Source: a bacterium
Lineage (GTDB): Bacteria; Desulfobacterota; Desulfocorpusculales; Desulfocorpusculum
Direction: 5' to 3'
NCBI GenBank assembly: GCA_037481695.1
Contig: JBBFLE010000002.1
Coordinates: 16,661 to 80,660, forward strand
DNA: 64,000 bases
In this document: positions 43,687-51,662 of the stretch, piece by piece
How the letters are laid out: each line of letters opens with the position of its first letter
How positions within the stretch are numbered: the first letter of the stretch is position 1
Program-made: the position numbers and the translations under genes
Notes under the pieces: model-generated
What the model saw: only the letters and a program-made list of their open reading frames with translations
What the model was told of the DNA's origin: nothing
Database searches by the model: none

Positions 43687-46323
43687 TTGGAAACCGTGGC
43701 CATTACACTAGATGGGGTCCCGGTAAGCGGGCGACAGGGGATTACCATACTGGAGCTGGCCGGGGAAGTGGGCATTTACATTCCCACCTTGTGCCATGAC
43801 CCAAGTCTCAAGCCCTCAGGGGCCTGCAGGATATGTGTTGTAGAAGATGAGACCTCCCATAGACTGGTGGCCTCCTGTGTTACACCCATCGCATCGGGCA
43901 TGCGCATTCAGACTCGCTCCCCCATGGTGCTGGAGGCCCGCAAGGTGATCCTCAAGCTCATGTTGGCCAACCATCCGGAATCCTGCCTGGTTTGCGACAA
44001 GGGAAATCGCTGCAGATTGAGGCAACTGGCCAGCGATTTTGGTATAGGGCTGGTGGATTACGACCGGATGAATTCCTTGGTGGGAATTCAAGAGGCCAAC
44101 CCCTTTATTCAAAGGGATCTGAGCAAGTGCATCCTTTGCGGCAAGTGTATAAGGGCAGACCAGGAGCTGGTGGTGGTGGGAGCATTGGATTATCTCCATC
44201 GCGGGTTCAACACCAGACCAGCCACCTTGATGGAGCTTCCCCTGGAGCGTTCCGAGTGCACCTTCTGCGGCACCTGCGTGGCCATCTGTCCCACAGGCGC
44301 TTTGACAGAGCGAGGCCGTCCCCACCTGGGAACCGTTGGAATCAGGACCGCCACTACCTGTTCCTATTGCGGGAGCGGATGCTCTCTATGGGCTTACGTA
44401 GTGGAGGATCGCCTGGTGCAGGTTGAGCCCAAGGCCCAAGGATCTGCCAACAAGGGCGCCCTCTGCGTGAGGGGACACTATGGAAGCGATTACCTGCACC
44501 ACCCAGAGAGGCTTCTGCACCCTCAGCTCAGGAAGGATGGAAAACTGGTGGAGGTGTCCTGGCAGCAGGCCTTGGACGAGGTGGCATCCAGGCTCATGGA
44601 GATATCCAGCCGCTACGGGCCGCACTCAGTGGGTTTCTTCGGCTCAACCCTTTGCACCAACGAGGAGAACTATTTGTTCCAGAAACTGGCCAGAGTGGGA
44701 ATAGGCACCCCCAACGTGGACAACGGGGCAAGGCTCCACTGCGCAGGTAGCCTCTTGGGCATGCAGGAAAGCCTCGGCACCTCAGGTGCAACCCACCCCT
44801 TGGAAGAGTTGGAGCGGGCCGATGTGATACTGGCCTTGGGAGCCCAGCCCCTGGAATCCCATCCAGTTGCTGGTTACGCCATAAAGAGGGCCGTGAGACA
44901 AAGGGGGGCCTTGCTCATATACGCTTCACCCTTGAGGGACTCCTTGAGCCGTATGGCCAGGCTCTGGCTCTGCCCATGGCCTGGTTCTGAGGACCGCCTT
45001 GTACTGTGGCTCCTGGCCAGAGTGATGAGGGCAAAGGGCAGGGCCTTGCCCCAGTGGATGGAGGCCATGGGTCCGGACTCCCTTTTGGATGGCACCATGG
45101 TGAAGGTCGAGGACATGGAGCAGGCCACTGAGATCCTTTGCTCCACATCTCGGGTGGGCATAGTGTTCGGTCGCGGACTGTCCGGGCTGCCAGGTGGGAA
45201 GCAGGCCGTTAGGGCATTGGTCCAACTGGCCTTGGAGCTGGGATGTCTCGGGATCAGTGGAGGAGGGATCTATCCCCTGGATAGGGGTTGCAACACCCTG
45301 GGGGCATGCGACATGGGCACCCTGCCAGAGTTCTTGCCTGGATGGAGGAAGGCCTCGGATCCCAAAGCCAGAGCTGAGCTGGGCGAACTCTGGGGCCAGG
45401 ATCCCCCACAGGGAAGGGGTTTGACGCTTCCGCAGATGCTGGAAGCGGCCCTCAGGGGAGATTTAAAAGCCCTTTACGTAATGGGCGAGAACCCCCTGGA
45501 ATTGCTGCCCGCACTGGCAGGGGAGGCCATGTCCAGCCTGGAGTTTCTGGTGGTGCAGGATATCTTCCCCACCAGGACTGCTCAGATGGCTCATGCTTTG
45601 CTTCCCGCAGCGGGGTTCCTGGAGAAGGAAGGCACGTACACCAGCCTGGAAAGACGAATCCAGAGGCTGAGGGTCTGTTCGTCCCCACCAGGAGGAGCAA
45701 GGCCAGACTGCTGGATCCTCACACAGTTGTTGGCGCGCATGAGTCTTAACCCGCAACATGAGTCGGCCGTTGAGATCATGAAGGAAATCTCCGAGGTGGT
45801 GCCCCAGATGAGGGGGGTGCGATATTCTCTGCTGGAGACTGAGCCCGTATTTTGGCCTTGCACGGAAGCTGGTGCCACTGGGGAGAGAATCCTGTTTCGG
45901 GGTGGTGTTCCCTCCTCGCATGCAATTTTGGAGGAGTCTTGGACTCCCTCCATGGAGAACCCGGACCCGGATTTCCCATTCCTGGCAGTGGAGGGGGAGT
46001 GTCTTTTCAGAGCAGGGGGAGCATCCCGAACAAGTAGATCTGCCAGGCTCAGGGCATTCAAGGCAAGGGGGGAGGTCTGGATGAATCCGGCAGATATGGC
46101 CTCACTGGGCTTGGAGCAGGCACAGGAGGTTCGCCTGGTCTCAAGGCAAGGCAATCTGCTGGCCACAGCACATCCCAGGGAAGAGCTTCACCCCGGGTTG
46201 CTGTGGGTTGTACCTGGGGCCGGTGGCCCGGCCATGGCTGCTTTGGCTCCTTGGAGTTTGGATCCCTCCTCTGGATCAATCCCCACTTTCAGGGCATGGG
46301 TGAGAGTGGAGGGAGTCCCCTGA
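43687..46323 (+). CDS. FdhA/NuoG-like molybdopterin oxidoreductase subunit (N-terminal 2Fe-2S and 4Fe-4S domains plus Mo-bisPGD-fold domain); catalytic status uncertain
   Basis: 878 aa with 2Fe-2S ferredoxin N-terminus (CHDPSLKPSGACRICVV), 4Fe-4S motifs (CILCGKCIRAD, CTFCGTCVAICP), molybdopterin-domain cluster CSYCGSGCSL...KGALCVRG, and conserved LGACDMGTLP region. No in-frame TGA, so no selenocysteine. Confidence 0.8.
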   Translation: METVAITLDGVPVSGRQGITILELAGEVGIYIPTLCHDPSLKPSGACRICVVEDETSHRLVASCVTPIASGMRIQTRSPMVLEARKVILKLMLANHPESCLVCDKGNRCRLRQLASDFGIGLVDYDRMNSLVGIQEANPFIQRDLSKCILCGKCIRADQELVVVGALDYLHRGFNTRPATLMELPLERSECTFCGTCVAICPTGALTERGRPHLGTVGIRTATTCSYCGSGCSLWAYVVEDRLVQVEPKAQGSANKGALCVRGHYGSDYLHHPERLLHPQLRKDGKLVEVSWQQALDEVASRLMEISSRYGPHSVGFFGSTLCTNEENYLFQKLARVGIGTPNVDNGARLHCAGSLLGMQESLGTSGATHPLEELERADVILALGAQPLESHPVAGYAIKRAVRQRGALLIYASPLRDSLSRMARLWLCPWPGSEDRLVLWLLARVMRAKGRALPQWMEAMGPDSLLDGTMVKVEDMEQATEILCSTSRVGIVFGRGLSGLPGGKQAVRALVQLALELGCLGISGGGIYPLDRGCNTLGACDMGTLPEFLPGWRKASDPKARAELGELWGQDPPQGRGLTLPQMLEAALRGDLKALYVMGENPLELLPALAGEAMSSLEFLVVQDIFPTRTAQMAHALLPAAGFLEKEGTYTSLERRIQRLRVCSSPPGGARPDCWILTQLLARMSLNPQHESAVEIMKEISEVVPQMRGVRYSLLETEPVFWPCTEAGATGERILFRGGVPSSHAILEESWTPSMENPDPDFPFLAVEGECLFRAGGASRTSRSARLRAFKARGEVWMNPADMASLGLEQAQEVRLVSRQGNLLATAHPREELHPGLLWVVPGAGGPAMAALAPWSLDPSSGSIPTFRAWVRVEGVP

Positions 46324-46426
46324 CAAGGATTCTTGGCCGGGGCAGGAAGTATGAGGACCTGCGCCCCAGGATTTTCACAGCCCTCGTGAACCATGGGGCG
46401 AAAAGCTCAGGCAGGGAGGGTTCAAA

Positions 46427-46882
46427 ATGGGCAAAGACCAGCAGTTGGATGGGATCATGGGGGGGTTTTCAAAATGTAGGGAATCTCTGATCCCGCTTCT
46501 ACAGGGGGTGCAGCAGCATTACGGTTATGTGCCACCCGAGACCCTGGAGCCCATTGCCCTCTATCTAGGGCTTTTCCCAGCAGAAGTGCAGGGTGTAGTG
46601 ACCTTTTACGCCCAATTCTCCCTGACCCCCAAGGGCAGGAACATAGTGCGCGTGTGCAGGGGAACAGCCTGCCACGTGAGGGGTGGGAGATCTATCTTGA
46701 CAGTGGCCGAGGAGAAACTGGGAATAAGGGACGGCGAAACAAGACAAGACCTTCGCTTCAGCCTGGAGACAGTGGCCTGTCTGGGTACCTGTTTCCTGGC
46801 TCCGGTGATGATGGTGAACCGCAACTATTATGGCAAGCTCGTTCCGTCCCAGGTCCAGTCCATCCTGCGACAATACGAGTAA
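46427..46882 (+). CDS. NuoE-like [2Fe-2S] thioredoxin-fold subunit
   Basis: 151 aa with NuoE/24-kDa-type motifs (VCRGTACHVRGG, VACLGTCFLAPVMMVN). Confidence 0.8.
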   Translation: MGKDQQLDGIMGGFSKCRESLIPLLQGVQQHYGYVPPETLEPIALYLGLFPAEVQGVVTFYAQFSLTPKGRNIVRVCRGTACHVRGGRSILTVAEEKLGIRDGETRQDLRFSLETVACLGTCFLAPVMMVNRNYYGKLVPSQVQSILRQYE

Positions 46883-50761: not shown

Positions 50762-50762
50762 A

Positions 50763-51662
50763 ATGGCTTCTCGATTCAGGGAAATCCTTCAATCCGGAGA
50801 GTTTGTGGTCACCAGCGAGATCGGCCCTCCCAAGGGAACAAATTTGGAGCCCATGCTGCACCACATAGAGCTCTTAAAGGATAAGGTCCATGCCCTCAAC
50901 GTGACGGATCACCAAAGCTCGGTGATGCGCTACCCTTCCCTGGGTGGAGCCATGCTCATCAAGGAGAGAGGAGGAGAGCCCATTGTGCAGATGACCTGCC
51001 GGGACAGAAATCGTCTGGCTCTTCAGGCCGACCTGCTTCTGGCCCACAGCCGCGGGATCAACAACGTGCTGTGCCTCACCGGAGATGCGGTGATTGTAGG
51101 GGACCACAAGGAGGCCAAAGGGGTCTTTGACCTGGATTCCAGCCAGCTCCTCATGGCCATACGCACCATGGAACGGGGAAAGGATCTTGGGGGTAATGAC
51201 CTGGATGGCGCTGTGGATTTGTGTGCTGGAGCCATAGTGACCCCTGAGGCAAAGCCTCTGGAGCCCCAACTCATCAAGTTCGAGAAGAAGGTGGAGGCAG
51301 GAGCCGAGTTCTTTCAAACCCAGGCCATATACGACCTGGAGAATTTTGAAAGATTTATGGACTACGCCAGGCCCTTTGGAGTGAAGATCCTGGCAGGCAT
51401 CATACTTCTCACATCCTGGCGCATGGCCGAATACATGAACCGAAATGTGCCGGGAGTTTACGTGCCTCAGCCCCTCATAGATGAGCTCAAGGCAGCTCCC
51501 ACTGGAGAGGCATTGAAGGTGGGAATAGAAATAGCGGGCCGAATGATAAGGACCATAAAGGAGAAAAGGCTCTGCGACGGTGTGCACGTGATGGCCATAG
51601 GCAAGGAGGAGGTGGTTCCAAGTATACTCAGGGCTGCGGGTTTGGATGGAGATTCCACCTGA
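50763..51662 (+). CDS. metF: 5,10-methylenetetrahydrofolate reductase
   Basis: 299 aa with TIM-barrel MetF pattern (FVVTSEIGPPKG, NVLCLTGD, FFQTQAIYD). Confidence 0.88.
   Translation: MASRFREILQSGEFVVTSEIGPPKGTNLEPMLHHIELLKDKVHALNVTDHQSSVMRYPSLGGAMLIKERGGEPIVQMTCRDRNRLALQADLLLAHSRGINNVLCLTGDAVIVGDHKEAKGVFDLDSSQLLMAIRTMERGKDLGGNDLDGAVDLCAGAIVTPEAKPLEPQLIKFEKKVEAGAEFFQTQAIYDLENFERFMDYARPFGVKILAGIILLTSWRMAEYMNRNVPGVYVPQPLIDELKAAPTGEALKVGIEIAGRMIRTIKEKRLCDGVHVMAIGKEEVVPSILRAAGLDGDST

What the first reader, a model, noticed from the sequence alone, without database searches (positions are those of the whole stretch)
43687..51662. MetF-MetV sits in one operon with an FdhA/NuoG-like protein, NuoE-like and a NuoF-GltD fusion: candidate undescribed electron-input module for methylene-THF reductase
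Five co-directional genes are separated by only 103, 21, 57 and 1 nt: FdhA-like molybdopterin protein, NuoE-like 2Fe-2S subunit, 1044-aa NuoF-GltD fusion, MetV, MetF. The MTHFR partner sets I know are MetF alone, MetFV, MetFV with HdrABC-MvhD, and MetFV with RnfC2. A MetFV coupled to a NuoE/NuoF-GltD/FdhA-like flavin and Fe-S module fits none of these. It could couple NADH and/or NADPH, possibly with ferredoxin, to methylene-THF reduction. The alternative is a NAD(P)H-linked formate dehydrogenase that is simply adjacent to metVF.
Basis: partly seen in the sequence, partly recalled or inferred. Interest (0 to 1): 0.8.

Follow-up and report, generated by a model that had tools for sequence, protein, structure and literature searches.

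The report
MetFV reductase with NuoEFG-like module
A conserved five-gene cluster joins the two-subunit methylene-tetrahydrofolate reductase MetFV to a hydrogenase-type NADH/NADPH flavin and iron-sulfur module whose formate-dehydrogenase-like subunit has lost its active site; a 2021 paper already pointed out this arrangement as a hypothetical "X-type" reductase, and I found no biochemical test of it.

Summary
Five co-directional ORFs at 43687-51662 have gaps of 103, 21, 57 and 1 nt and the stated domains.

The linkage is not chance. All 12 related loci sampled, from Thermodesulfobacteriota/Deltaproteobacteria, Dehalococcoidia and a Spirochaetes-labelled MAG, carry NuoE, NuoF-GltD fusion, MetV and MetF in this order with unrelated flanks. 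The MetVF-linked fusions form an exclusive clade among 51 fusions.

The FdhA-like subunit is not a formate dehydrogenase. The window protein and its 120 closest homologues all lack the Cys/Sec-His dyad and the RGQNNVQG arginine. It scores below the TIGR01591 cut-off. Constraint has shifted from the molybdopterin domain to the Fe-S region.

NuoE and the NuoF half resemble the bifurcating Bfu (HydBC/StnAB/NfnBC) core most closely. The GltD (NADPH/FAD) module replaces BfuB's C-terminal ferredoxin-like domain.

Best reading (about 0.6): a dedicated five-subunit, NAD(P)H-linked and possibly electron-bifurcating MTHFR. Main rival (about 0.25): a stand-alone Stn-type transhydrogenase co-transcribed with MetFV.

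The arrangement is not undescribed. Yi et al. 2021 (PMC8515935) named it the "X type", a hypothetical MetFV-NuoEFG pentamer, and noted that it had not been studied. My searches found no biochemical characterisation.

The parts
43109..43686 (+). 578-nt upstream intergenic region, the presumed promoter and leader of the cluster
   Evidence: A terminator-like hairpin at 43124-43145 follows the IDH gene, and a weak sigma-70-like match lies at 43271-43298, at a frequency no higher than chance. AGGAGG precedes the TTG start. No Rfam family reaches threshold here.
43687..46323 (+). FdhA-derived, BfuA/NuoG-like Fe-S subunit (878 aa), most likely catalytically inactive
   Evidence: Domains. It scores 463 bits on TIGR01591 against a cut-off of 666, and 306 bits on TIGR01973 (NuoG) against 470. 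All Fe-S cysteines are conserved: C36/47/50/64, H96-C100/103/109, C148/151/154, C191/194/197/201 and C225/228/232/260. The Fe-S region is 64 % identical within the clade and the MopB region 41 %, the reverse of canonical FDHs at 42 % and 54 %.
44722..44751 (+). Remnant of the FDH active-site motif (residues 346-355, NGARLHCAGS)
   Evidence: It aligns to CARVCHSPT (Cys386-His387) of R. capsulatus FdsA, PDB 6tg9. The Cys/Sec-His dyad is absent in 121 of 121 clade members. Cys352 is present in only 3 of them.
45271..45318 (+). Remnant of the FDH arginine motif (residues 529-544, YPLDRGCNTLGACDMG)
   Evidence: It aligns to PLRGQNNVQGSCDMG of FdsA. RGQ is absent in 121 of 121 clade members and present in all 7 canonical controls.
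46427..46882 (+). NuoE/BfuC-like [2Fe-2S] subunit (151 aa)
   Evidence: PF01257 at 1.7e-49. C77, C82, C118 and C122 are conserved in 10 of 10. The best PDB hits are the C subunits of bifurcating enzymes: 7t2r_C, 8a6t_C, 9n5u_C, 7p5h_C and 8oh5_A.
46904..48580 (+). BfuB/HydB/NuoF-like half of the 1044-aa fusion (residues 1-559), carrying the FMN and NAD(H) site
   Evidence: The N-terminal four cysteines C31/35/67/71 are invariant. GAGAFVCGEETAL lies at 297-309, and C474/477/480/520 form the [4Fe-4S] site. PDB hits: 7t2r_B 773 bits, 8a6t_B 705, 8oh5_B (StnB) 665 and 9n5u_B (NfnB) 664, against at most 405 bits for non-bifurcating FdsB/Nqo1.
48581..50038 (+). GltD/NfnB-like half of the fusion (residues 560-1044): two [4Fe-4S] clusters, FAD and an NADP(H) site. 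It takes the place of the BfuB C-terminal ferredoxin-like domain.
   Evidence: Fer4_20 + Pyr_redox_2. C550/555/563/567 and C602/606/610/614 are invariant. VAVIGGGNTALDAAR lies at 788-802, YYRR at 815-818 and an invariant RCLRC at 1029-1033. This half matches the GltD parts of 9bov_A, 9n5u_A (NfnA) and 8oh5_C (StnC). HydB/StnB alignments stop at about residue 559, which leaves their last ~55-60 residues without a counterpart.
50096..50761 (+). MetV, the Fe-S/Zn subunit of MetFV-type MTHFR (221 aa)
   Evidence: PF12225 at 2.4e-37. NGPCGG lies at residue 157. Twelve cysteines are conserved in 10 of 10. No solved structure of any homologue exists.
50763..51662 (+). MetF, the flavin-containing catalytic subunit (299 aa), not the E. 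coli NAD(P)H type
   Evidence: PF02219 at 2.2e-42. It scores 82 bits on TIGR00676 against a cut-off of 294. It is 74-81 % identical across the Deltaproteobacteria and Dehalococcoidia loci. A 100 % identical protein is MEJ5375543.1, from a MAG labelled 'bacterium'.
51750..53684 (+). Response regulator (51750-52129) and hybrid RR-PAS-histidine kinase (52152-53684), possibly associated regulators
   Evidence: Pfam. The ATG at 51750 has a GGAGGAG ribosome-binding site and matches the 126-aa gene call in L001. Two-component genes flank the cluster in 9 loci. Association is inferred from recurrence only.

Best explanation
The five genes encode one dedicated, multi-subunit methylene-tetrahydrofolate reductase. 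This is the hypothetical 'X-type' MetFV-NuoEFG pentamer of Yi et al. 2021.

Proposed roles of the subunits:
- MetF (flavin) reduces methylene-THF or oxidises methyl-THF.
- MetV (Fe-S) wires MetF to a Bfu-type module.
- NuoE-like BfuC carries a [2Fe-2S] cluster.
- The HydB/NuoF-like BfuB core carries FMN, an NAD(H) site and a [4Fe-4S] cluster. Its C-terminal ferredoxin-like domain is replaced by a fused GltD/NfnB module with two [4Fe-4S] clusters, FAD and an NADP(H) site.
- The formate-dehydrogenase-derived BfuA has lost its catalytic residues and serves as an Fe-S wire and scaffold.

The module makes MetFV, which alone cannot use NAD(P)H, pyridine-nucleotide-linked. It probably couples the -200 mV methylene-/methyl-THF couple to a lower-potential partner by flavin-based electron bifurcation or confurcation. 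That partner would be ferredoxin or NADP+. Candidate reactions are 2 NAD(P)H + methylene-THF + Fd(ox) <-> 2 NAD(P)+ + methyl-THF + Fd(red), or 2 NADH + methylene-THF + NADP+ <-> 2 NAD+ + methyl-THF + NADPH.

Shown: gene content, cofactor motifs, loss of the FDH active site, synteny and clade structure. Inferred: co-transcription, physical complex, electron path, nucleotide specificity and any bifurcation. Given a complex, I put some form of energy coupling at about 0.55 and a plain NAD(P)H-dependent reductase at about 0.45.
For: 1. Synteny. All 12 sampled loci carry NuoE, fusion, MetV and MetF in this order with unrelated flanks. Ten were reached through fusion homologues of 62-98 % identity and two through MetF homologues of about 80 %. 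Ten also carry the FdhA-like gene directly upstream; L002 lacks it and L089 is cut by the contig end, keeping only a Molydop_binding C-terminal fragment. The window has no other Wood-Ljungdahl genes nearby.
2. Tight gene spacing. Fusion and metV overlap by 17 nt in L089. metV and metF overlap or abut in L086, L087, L089 and the window.
3. Clade structure. In a neighbour-joining tree of 51 NuoF-GltD fusions, the 13 MetVF-linked ones form an exclusive split.
4. Sister clades. Fusions of 40-55 % identity are followed by a catalytic BfuA. Seven of 10 sampled have a true [FeFe]-HydA; others have a canonical Cys/Sec FDH scoring 831-900 bits on TIGR01591. In the MetVF clade the BfuA active site is dead: 121 of 121 lack [C/U]H and RGQ, scores are 423-567 bits against a cut-off of 666, and constraint has shifted to the Fe-S region. 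The only catalytic partner left in the cluster is MetFV.
5. Cofactors. Every cofactor-binding motif in all five proteins is conserved.
6. Bfu affinity. NuoE and the NuoF half are closest to bifurcating Bfu B/C subunits.
7. Literature. MetFV of this arrangement forms its own phylogenetic group III (Yi et al. 2021, PMC8515935). MetF of MetFV-type enzymes has no NAD(P)H site, and NAD(P)H did not serve as donor for the purified two-subunit enzymes (PMC8760232; PMC8515935). A. woodii solves this with the NuoF-related RnfC2 subunit.
Against: - There is no experimental evidence of any kind for this clade. Co-transcription and complex formation are inferred from gene order alone.
- The three upstream proteins contain everything a stand-alone Stn/NfnABC transhydrogenase needs. 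In Sporomusa ovata stnABC lies next to metVF, yet Stn purifies without MetFV.
- No natural fusion of MetV with NuoE, NuoF, GltD or the FdhA-like protein appears among the 150 best MetV representatives.
- L002 lacks the BfuA-like gene, so BfuA cannot be the obligatory wire to MetV.
- At -200 mV, methylene-THF is not a mid-potential third substrate. The canonical Bfu scheme (PMC9304861, PMC11829005, PMC12018979) therefore does not map on simply.
- The BfuB C-terminal domain that helps bind ferredoxin is missing.
Confidence: 0.6

Rival explanations
1. The first three genes encode a self-sufficient Stn/NfnABC-type (Bfu family) electron-bifurcating transhydrogenase (NADH + Fd(red) + 2 NADP+ <-> NAD+ + Fd(ox) + 2 NADPH). 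Its domains are repartitioned, with GltD on BfuB instead of BfuA. It is co-transcribed with an ordinary ferredoxin-dependent two-subunit MetFV because both serve C1 and redox metabolism, but the two do not form a complex.
For: - The domain content equals that of StnABC/NfnABC. The GltD half matches StnC 103-566, NfnA and 9bov_A. The NuoF half matches StnB and NfnB, and NuoE matches StnA and NfnC.
- StnC also carries a NuoG/FDH-like domain (its PDB chain 8oh5_C is named 'Formate dehydrogenase-O, major subunit').
- In S. ovata stnABC lies directly downstream of metVF, yet the enzyme purifies alone.
- The two-subunit MetFV enzymes that have been purified use reduced ferredoxin.
- No MetV-Bfu fusion proteins were found.
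Against: - The S. ovata adjacency sits inside a large Wood-Ljungdahl cluster where metVF is paired with hdrCBA-mvhD. Here the five genes travel alone, in fixed order, in 12 of 12 loci across phyla.
- The MetVF-linked fusions are an exclusive clade.
- Fusion and metV overlap in L089.
- Sister fusion clades always have a catalytic BfuA. This suggests the NuoE/NuoF-GltD pair normally serves a further catalytic site.
- MetFV of this arrangement is a separate phylogenetic group from the ferredoxin-dependent 2S type.
Confidence: 0.25
2. The first three genes encode an NAD(P)H-linked, possibly bifurcating, formate dehydrogenase that simply lies next to metVF.
For: - The best PDB hits of the 878-aa protein are the NAD-dependent FDH alpha subunits 9wxb_B and 6tg9_A, at about 1e-143.
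- TIGR01591 is its best NCBIfam match.
- JGI and NCBI name many clade members 'formate dehydrogenase subunit alpha'.
- Molybdenum-cofactor genes lie near two loci: MoeA/MoCF_biosynth in L082 and a MobA-like gene in L002.
Against: - The Cys/Sec-His dyad and the RGQNNVQG arginine are absent in the window protein and in all 120 closest homologues. No residue is conserved at the ligand position (H, Q, Y, S or G). Seven canonical controls next to other NuoF genes keep both motifs.
- Scores of 423-567 bits fall below the 666-bit cut-off, against 831-900 bits for the controls.
- The MopB domain is less conserved than the Fe-S region, the reverse of true FDHs.
- PGAP names the window's own protein only 'molybdopterin-dependent oxidoreductase'.
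- L002 lacks the gene altogether.
Confidence: 0.03
3. The module is a sensor or regulator, or it serves a different substrate. For example, the degenerate molybdopterin domain could bind another small molecule, or the cluster could work on a methylated compound rather than in the Wood-Ljungdahl pathway. MetFV would then be only one of several partners.
For: - Two-component genes recur next to the cluster.
- A MetV domain is fused to a histidine kinase in P0366.
- Extra divergent MetF paralogues lie upstream in L082, L086 and L087.
- The window contains no other Wood-Ljungdahl genes.
Against: All redox-cofactor motifs of a working electron-transfer chain are strictly conserved. MetF is 74-81 % identical across phyla, which is typical of a core metabolic enzyme. 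No positive evidence points to another substrate.
Confidence: 0.07

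Closest known systems
'X-type' / group III MTHFR, the hypothetical MetFV-NuoEFG pentamer of Dethiosulfatarculus sandiegensis (Yi et al. 2021, Microbiol Spectr, PMC8515935)
   Same: metV-metF is preceded by NuoG-, NuoE- and NuoF-homologue genes. The taxa match those named there, Desulfobacterales and Chloroflexi: related loci here are labelled Thermodesulfobacteriota, Syntrophobacteraceae, Deltaproteobacteria and Dehalococcoidia. 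Both are proposed to be bifurcating. Neither has been studied biochemically.
   Different: I know of no difference. I could not fetch the D. sandiegensis sequences to align them. The paper speaks only of 'NuoEFG homologues'. Three points seen here are not in the text I read: 'NuoF' is a NuoF-GltD fusion with an NADPH/FAD module, 'NuoG' is a formate-dehydrogenase alpha subunit with a dead active site, and the B/C core is of the Bfu type.
StnABC / NfnABC, Bfu-family electron-bifurcating transhydrogenases (S. ovata 8oh5; C. saccharolyticus; T. sibiricus 9n5u or 9bov; PMC7483475, PMC11829005, PMC12018979)
   Same: The cofactor modules are the same: NuoE-like C, HydB-like B with FMN/NAD(H), a GltD-like FAD/NADP(H) module, and a NuoG/FDH-like Fe-S domain. 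In S. ovata the genes sit next to metVF.
   Different: GltD is fused to the C-terminus of B, replacing B's ferredoxin-like domain, rather than to the N-terminus of A. A retains a full-length but degenerate MopB domain. The genes are strictly linked to metVF as a five-gene unit. Activity is unknown.
Type III MTHFR of Acetobacterium woodii (MetF-MetV-RnfC2)
   Same: MetFV is made NADH-dependent by an added subunit with a Complex1_51K-type FMN/NADH domain and Fe-S clusters. P0433 shows the MetV-RnfC architecture.
   Different: A. woodii adds one subunit of the RnfC type, carrying a MetV-like N-terminus. It has no NuoE, no GltD/NADPH module and no NuoG/FDH-like subunit. It is reported as non-bifurcating.
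Type IV MTHFR of Moorella thermoacetica and Sporomusa ovata (MetFV-HdrABC-MvhD)
   Same: MetFV is attached to a multi-subunit flavin/Fe-S module from a known bifurcating enzyme family. NADH is the donor, and the second acceptor is still unknown.
   Different: The module is HdrA-based rather than Bfu-based. No hdr or mvhD genes occur in or beside the cluster here.
NAD-dependent formate dehydrogenase FdsABG (R. capsulatus 6tg9) and FDH-type Bfu enzymes
   Same: The three-subunit layout is the same: FdhA with a NuoG-like N-terminus, a NuoF-like subunit and a NuoE-like subunit. They are the best full-length PDB hits for the 878-aa protein. The nearest non-MetVF relatives of the fusion are FDH-linked, L005 and L003. 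The cluster probably evolved from such an enzyme.
   Different: The catalytic Cys/Sec-His and Arg are lost. The score is sub-threshold. The B subunit carries the Bfu-type N-terminal domain plus GltD.
NuoE / NuoF-GltD / HydA clusters, uncharacterised [FeFe]-hydrogenases with the same fusion
   Same: They have the same NuoE plus NuoF-GltD fusion pair, at 40-55 % identity. They are widespread in Firmicutes, Bacteroidetes, Spirochaetes, Planctomycetota, Acidobacteria and other groups.
   Different: The gene order is C-B-A, with a true H-cluster HydA as the catalytic subunit. There is no metVF.

Membership tests
X-type MTHFR (MetFV-NuoEFG, Yi et al. 2021) | metV-metF immediately preceded by genes for NuoE, NuoF and NuoG homologues | tested here: met
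   ORFs and domains. The same order is found in 12 of 12 related loci.
X-type MTHFR (MetFV-NuoEFG, Yi et al. 2021) | [quoted passage not shown] | not tested
   No reference sequence of D. sandiegensis MetFV could be fetched. The only indirect support is that the taxa of close homologues match those named in the paper.
X-type MTHFR (MetFV-NuoEFG, Yi et al. 2021) | The five proteins form one pentameric complex with MTHFR activity | not testable with these tools
   This is hypothetical in the source paper as well.
Bfu family (BfuABC; Schut et al. 2022) | BfuB core with FMN/NAD(H) site and adjacent [4Fe-4S], plus BfuC [2Fe-2S] (the flavobicluster) | tested here: met
   GAGAFVCGEETAL, C474/477/480/520 and NuoE C77/82/118/122 are all invariant. 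The best PDB hits are bifurcating B/C subunits.
Bfu family (BfuABC; Schut et al. 2022) | BfuB N-terminal thioredoxin-like domain with four Cys (cluster or Zn site) | tested here: met
   C31, C35, C67 and C71 are invariant in 15 of 15 and 10 of 10 sequences. The Pfam 2Fe-2S_thioredx match covers residues 21-100.
Bfu family (BfuABC; Schut et al. 2022) | BfuB C-terminal ferredoxin-like domain (two clusters or Zn) that contributes to the ferredoxin-binding site | tested here: not met
   Alignments to HydB, StnB and NfnB end at about residue 559. From residue 539 the Fer4_20 domain of GltD follows. No CxxCxxCxxxCP pair is present.
Bfu family (BfuABC; Schut et al. 2022) | Electron-bifurcating activity with NAD(H), ferredoxin and a third substrate | not testable with these tools
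   This needs enzyme assays.
Stn / NfnABC transhydrogenase | GltD/NfnB-like FAD-NADP(H) module with two [4Fe-4S] clusters | tested here: met
   Fer4_20 + Pyr_redox_2, eight invariant Cys, and the GGGNTALDAAR and YYRR motifs. The module matches StnC, NfnA and 9bov_A.
Stn / NfnABC transhydrogenase | GltD module fused to the N-terminus of the NuoG-like BfuA subunit (StnC/NfnA) | tested here: not met
   Here it is fused to the C-terminus of the NuoF-like subunit. The 878-aa protein has no Pyr_redox domain.
Formate dehydrogenase alpha subunit (TIGR01591 equivalog) | Score at or above the curated cut-off (666.25 bits) | tested here: not met
   The window protein scores 462.8 bits. Five orthologues score 423-567 bits, and canonical neighbours of other NuoF genes score 831-900 bits.
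Formate dehydrogenase alpha subunit (TIGR01591 equivalog) | Mo/W-ligating Cys or Sec followed by His, and the catalytic Arg of RGQNNVQG | tested here: not met
   ARLHCAGS and LDRGCNTLG stand in place of ARVCHSPT and LRGQNNVQG. Zero of 121 clade members are canonical, against 7 of 7 controls.
Formate dehydrogenase alpha subunit (TIGR01591 equivalog) | Bound Mo- or W-bis-pyranopterin guanine dinucleotide | not testable with these tools
   Metal and cofactor analysis is needed. Neighbouring Moco genes in L002 and L082 are only suggestive.
NuoG of complex I (TIGR01973) | Score at or above the cut-off (470 bits) | tested here: not met
   305.6 bits. No membrane-arm nuo genes occur in the window.
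MetFV-type MTHFR core | MetF (PF02219) directly preceded by MetV (PF12225, NGPCGG motif, Cys-rich), with MetF not of the E. coli NAD(P)H equivalog | tested here: met
   (82 bits on TIGR00676 against a cut-off of 294).
Type III (RnfC2) and type IV (HdrABC-MvhD) MTHFR | rnfC2, or hdrABC and mvhD, adjacent to metVF | tested here: not met
   No RnfC_N, CCG or FlpD domain protein occurs among the ORFs flanking the cluster or in the 12 related loci.

The most novel reading that the evidence does not exclude
The cluster encodes the first Bfu-family enzyme whose extra substrate is a folate. It would be an electron-bifurcating or confurcating MTHFR in which a dead formate dehydrogenase acts as the Fe-S wire and a GltD module fused to BfuB supplies an NADP(H) leg, with or without ferredoxin. 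It would couple the -200 mV methyl-/methylene-THF step to NAD(H) and a low-potential carrier. This would explain how acetate-oxidising sulfate reducers and Dehalococcoidia run the methyl-THF oxidation step, and it would supply the long-sought energy-coupled MTHFR of the Wood-Ljungdahl pathway.
Probability: 0.3. Interest if true: 0.85.

Novelty: new member of a known kind. Interest (0 to 1): 0.55.

Why it matters
[quoted passage not shown] So has how the reverse step is driven in acetate oxidisers. The characterised enzymes are NADH-dependent without coupling, ferredoxin-dependent and wasteful, or Hdr-linked with an unknown second acceptor.

This clade offers a fourth MetFV partner module, taken from the Bfu family, whose bifurcation site has recently been defined structurally. 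It is widespread in Thermodesulfobacteriota and Dehalococcoidia: more than 120 protein clusters at 90 % identity were found for each subunit searched.

This analysis adds three things to the one-paragraph mention in the literature:
- The 'NuoG' is a formate dehydrogenase with a dead active site. That removes the FDH reading and corrects widespread 'formate dehydrogenase' annotation.
- The 'NuoF' carries an NADPH/FAD module in place of the ferredoxin-binding domain. This predicts three nucleotide or folate sites and gives concrete assay designs.
- The same NuoE/NuoF-GltD pair serves true hydrogenases and FDHs in sister clades. That argues MetFV is the catalytic partner here.

Tried and rejected
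- **Formate dehydrogenase reading:** rejected on active-site motifs, HMM scores and the pattern of constraint.
- **Rosetta-stone test:** I searched 1.84 billion representatives with MetV for natural fusions to NuoE, NuoF, GltD or the FdhA-like protein. None was found among the best 150. The only fusions seen were MetV-MetF, MetV-RnfC, MetV-Rieske, Fer4-MetV, MetV-histidine kinase, and one MetV hit inside a P-type-ATPase-like protein (P0468), not followed up. This neither supports nor excludes a complex.
- **Riboswitch or leader RNA upstream:** nothing reaches Rfam thresholds.
- **Promoter and terminator scans:** counts are at chance level. Their only use is to show that no terminator-like site lies in the four gaps.
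- **Genome-contig scan with the fusion alignment:** It returned only relatives of 40-55 % identity, none from the MetVF clade. It was still useful as an outgroup set.
- **Literature:** ten searches (MetF/MetV/NuoF, MetVF/NuoEF, MetFV/NuoEFG, Dethiosulfatarculus, X-type, Bfu, GltD and others) found only Yi et al. 2021 mentioning the arrangement, and no characterisation. The Bfu family survey (PMC9304861) does not mention folate, MetF or GltD. Subscription-only papers are not covered.
- **Structure prediction:** not run. Single-chain models cannot test subunit contacts or cofactor occupancy.

Full report
**Observation**

All are on the + strand, with gaps of 103, 21, 57 and 1 nt.

- A formate-dehydrogenase-alpha-like protein with a NuoG-type Fe-S N-terminus.
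- A NuoE-type [2Fe-2S] protein.
- A NuoF-type flavoprotein fused to a GltD/NfnB-type module (Fer4_20 + Pyr_redox_2).
- MetV (DUF5981, with NGPCGG at residue 157).
- MetF.

A 578-nt intergenic region precedes the first gene, and a terminator-like hairpin lies just after the upstream isocitrate dehydrogenase gene. No terminator-like site lies in the four internal gaps. An operon is therefore plausible but not shown.

The window comes from an unclassified MAG. The FdhA-like protein has a near-identical cluster-mate, MEJ5375539.1 (875 aa), and MetF is 100 % identical to MEJ5375543.1; the two accession numbers are four apart. No other Wood-Ljungdahl gene lies in the 64 kb.

**Is the linkage real?**

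I traced homologues of the fusion protein (62-98 % identity) and of MetF (about 80 %) to their contigs. All 12 loci examined carry NuoE, fusion, MetV and MetF in this order. Ten also have the FdhA-like gene directly upstream; L002 lacks it and L089 is cut by the contig end. The flanking genes differ from locus to locus.

The loci are labelled Deltaproteobacteria/Thermodesulfobacteriota, Syntrophobacteraceae, Dehalococcoidia and Spirochaetes. Genes overlap in several of them: fusion and metV by 17 nt in L089, and metV and metF in L086, L087 and L089.

One genome, CP070710.1 (L002), lacks the FdhA-like gene. It has only a 215-aa Molydop_binding ORF in that position.

**The fusion outside this clade**

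The NuoF-GltD fusion is widespread. A scan of one genome per species returned about 40 full-length fusions of 40-55 % identity from a dozen phylum-level groups. None of these is followed by metVF.

Their neighbour is instead one of two catalytic subunits. Seven of 10 sampled have a genuine [FeFe]-hydrogenase HydA. Others have a canonical formate dehydrogenase alpha subunit with Cys or Sec.

In a neighbour-joining tree of 51 fusions, the 13 MetVF-linked ones form an exclusive split. Their nearest neighbours are FDH-linked.

**The FdhA-like subunit is a dead formate dehydrogenase**

- Against R. capsulatus FdsA (6tg9), the Cys386-His387 motif ARVCHSPT reads ARLHCAGS, and the Arg587 motif LRGQNNVQG reads LDRGCNTLG.
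- The window protein and all 120 closest homologues (43-95 % identity) lack both the [C/U]H dyad and RGQ. No residue is conserved at the ligand position. Seven FDH alpha subunits encoded next to other NuoF or fusion genes keep both motifs.
- The window protein scores 463 bits on TIGR01591 and five orthologues score 423-567 bits. The cut-off is 666 bits, and the canonical neighbours score 831-900 bits.
- All cysteines of the [2Fe-2S] cluster and the four [4Fe-4S] clusters are conserved.
- Within the clade the Fe-S region is 64 % identical and the molybdopterin region 41 %. Canonical FDHs show the reverse, 42 % against 54 %.

The subunit therefore looks like a retained electron wire and scaffold, analogous to NuoG or to the NuoG-like part of StnC. 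Whether it still binds a pterin cofactor cannot be told from sequence. JGI and NCBI label many members of this clade 'formate dehydrogenase subunit alpha', which is probably wrong.

**What the module resembles**

The NuoE-like protein and residues 30-559 of the fusion match the C and B subunits of electron-bifurcating Bfu enzymes far better than they match non-bifurcating NuoEF or FdsBG. The Bfu matches are NiFe- and FeFe-HydABC, StnAB and NfnBC, at 611-773 bits. The non-bifurcating proteins score at most 405 bits. The four N-terminal cysteines typical of BfuB are invariant.

Residues 560-1034 match the GltD-like parts of StnC, NfnA and 9bov_A. They carry eight invariant cluster cysteines, a GGGNTALDAAR dinucleotide motif and a YYRR motif. 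From my own knowledge of the NfnB/GltD family, that motif goes with NADPH.

The three proteins therefore have the same cofactor inventory as the Stn/NfnABC transhydrogenase, but the GltD module sits on the C-terminus of B instead of the N-terminus of A. There it replaces the small ferredoxin-like domain of BfuB. According to the 2025 cryo-EM work, that domain forms part of the ferredoxin-binding site, and the bifurcation site is the [4Fe-4S]-FMN-[2Fe-2S] flavobicluster (PMC11829005, PMC12018979).

**Literature**

Yi et al. 2021 (PMC8515935) add a paragraph on exactly this arrangement:

[quoted passage not shown] Their MetFV phylogeny places it as a separate group III, a 'hypothetical Pentamer MTHFR... 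MetFV-NuoEFG complex'.

Ten full-text searches found no later characterisation. The Bfu-family survey does not list a folate among its third substrates. No MetV homologue has a solved structure. The arrangement is therefore noticed and named but, as far as these searches show, untested.

**Most likely function**

I favour a dedicated five-subunit MTHFR, with confidence about 0.6. The argument runs in four steps:
- MetF of MetFV enzymes has no NAD(P)H site, and NAD(P)H did not serve as donor for the purified two-subunit enzymes.
- In sister clades the NuoE/NuoF-GltD pair always accompanies a catalytic subunit, either a hydrogenase or an FDH.
- In this clade that catalytic site is dead and metVF is invariably appended.
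- The five genes move as a unit.

The electron path is inferred. NAD(H) would bind at the FMN and NADP(H) at the GltD FAD, with Fe-S chains through BfuA and/or the GltD clusters to MetV and then to the MetF flavin.

Whether the enzyme bifurcates is open. Thermodynamically plausible schemes use potentials of -200 mV for methylene-THF, about -280 mV for NADH, about -380 mV for NADPH and about -500 mV for ferredoxin:
- 2 NAD(P)H + methylene-THF + Fd(ox) <-> 2 NAD(P)+ + methyl-THF + Fd(red).
- A ferredoxin-independent version: 2 NADH + methylene-THF + NADP+ <-> 2 NAD+ + methyl-THF + NADPH.

The second scheme is suggested by GltD occupying the place of the ferredoxin-binding domain. A plain NAD(P)H-dependent reductase, working like the RnfC2 type, is about as likely as either.

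**Rivals**

The serious rival (about 0.25) is a stand-alone Stn-type transhydrogenase co-transcribed with a ferredoxin-dependent MetFV. The ABC proteins contain all the parts such an enzyme needs. In S. ovata stnABC follows metVF, yet Stn purifies alone. I also found no natural MetV-Bfu fusion. Against it stand the strict five-gene synteny outside any larger Wood-Ljungdahl cluster, the exclusive clade, the gene overlaps and the separate MetFV phylogenetic group.

The FDH-adjacent reading is at about 0.03. Other readings, such as a sensor role or a different substrate, are at about 0.07.

**Verdict**

The cluster is a new member of an already-noticed but uncharacterised kind. Its interest lies in making the old question of MTHFR energy coupling testable with concrete predictions. 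The interest is reduced because the core idea has been in print since 2021.

Noticed in passing
window 51750-53684 and 38886-41261; L001, L082, L086, L087, L088, L089, L090, L091: Two-component system genes recur beside the five-gene cluster in 9 loci. They include response regulators, hybrid RR-PAS-histidine kinases, a PAS-HK-GNAT protein and HTH_17/MerR-RR proteins. This suggests a conserved dedicated regulator. The response regulator probably starts at the ATG at 51750 rather than the TTG at 51689.
   Followed up: partly
P0366 (527 aa, from the MetV representative search): A MetV domain 48 % identical to the window MetV is fused to HisKA + HATPase_c. A MetV-like Fe-S domain is apparently used as the sensor of a histidine kinase. 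This fits the two-component genes seen next to the cluster.
   Followed up: partly
L082 3778-4650; L086 3006-3875; L087 2923-3792; L090 1-1017: An extra, very divergent MetF paralogue lies directly upstream of the FdhA-like gene in three loci. It is 289-290 aa, 33 % identical to the cluster MetF, and has no PDB hit at 1e-5. L090 has an extra MetV-MetF pair in that position. The window lacks it.
   Followed up: partly
L002 (CP070710.1) 7560-9331: One genome has no FdhA-like gene in the cluster, only a 215-aa ORF consisting of the Molydop_binding domain. A MobA-like NTP_transf_3 gene and pyruvate:ferredoxin-oxidoreductase-like genes precede it. L082 has MoeA/MoCF_biosynth genes about 2 kb downstream of its cluster.
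   Followed up: no
L004-L042 (genome-contig loci): The NuoE + NuoF-GltD fusion pair is widespread in Firmicutes, Bacteroidetes, Spirochaetes, Planctomycetota, Acidobacteria, Verrucomicrobia, Omnitrophota, Caldisericota and other groups. It is usually followed by a true [FeFe]-hydrogenase HydA. I found no description of this hydrogenase architecture, with an NADPH/FAD module in place of the BfuB ferredoxin-like domain.
   Followed up: partly
window 49988-50005 (fusion residues 1029-1034): An invariant C-terminal R-C-L-R-C-D motif is present in 15 of 15 and 10 of 10 fusion proteins. Its partner ligands are unknown. It may be half of an interface cluster or Zn site.
   Followed up: no
homologues P0253-P0357 of window 43687-46323: JGI and NCBI name many members of the dead-active-site clade 'formate dehydrogenase (NADP+) alpha subunit' or 'formate dehydrogenase subunit alpha'. 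All 121 examined lack the catalytic Cys/Sec-His and Arg motifs, so this is probably systematic misannotation.
   Followed up: yes
L003 6258-12505 (Dehalococcoidales MAG): An FdhA-like gene with a degenerate active site (SARLSLLPS, LVAQNNAQG) still scores above the FDH cut-off, at 715 bits. NuoE and a 52 %-identical fusion follow it, and the contig ends 210 nt later. It may be an intermediate or a truncated X-type locus.
   Followed up: no
window 37341-37822 (- strand): A bacterial small SRP RNA lies at 37341-37438 and two tRNAs at 37616-37707 and 37732-37822. The 265-aa ORF at 37537-38334 overlaps the tRNAs, has no Pfam match and is probably spurious.
   Followed up: no
window 53763-63983 (- strand): This is a run of genes unrelated to the finding: a DinB-like protein, AA_synth (PF06684), a 283-aa protein without a Pfam hit (ApbE-like in L001), a 564-aa 4Fe-4S protein, an amidohydrolase, xanthine-dehydrogenase-family MoCoBD and FAD subunits, an isochorismatase and an aldehyde dehydrogenase. 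It may be a heterocycle or purine degradation cluster.
   Followed up: no
window 11709-23768 (- strand) and 31022-34353: An exopolysaccharide cluster is present: UDP-glucose dehydrogenase-like, Wzz/GNVR, YjbH, a 930-aa Poly_export protein with four SLBB domains, and a DegT aminotransferase. A 739-aa ORF without any Pfam match lies next to a Ser/Thr protein kinase.
   Followed up: no
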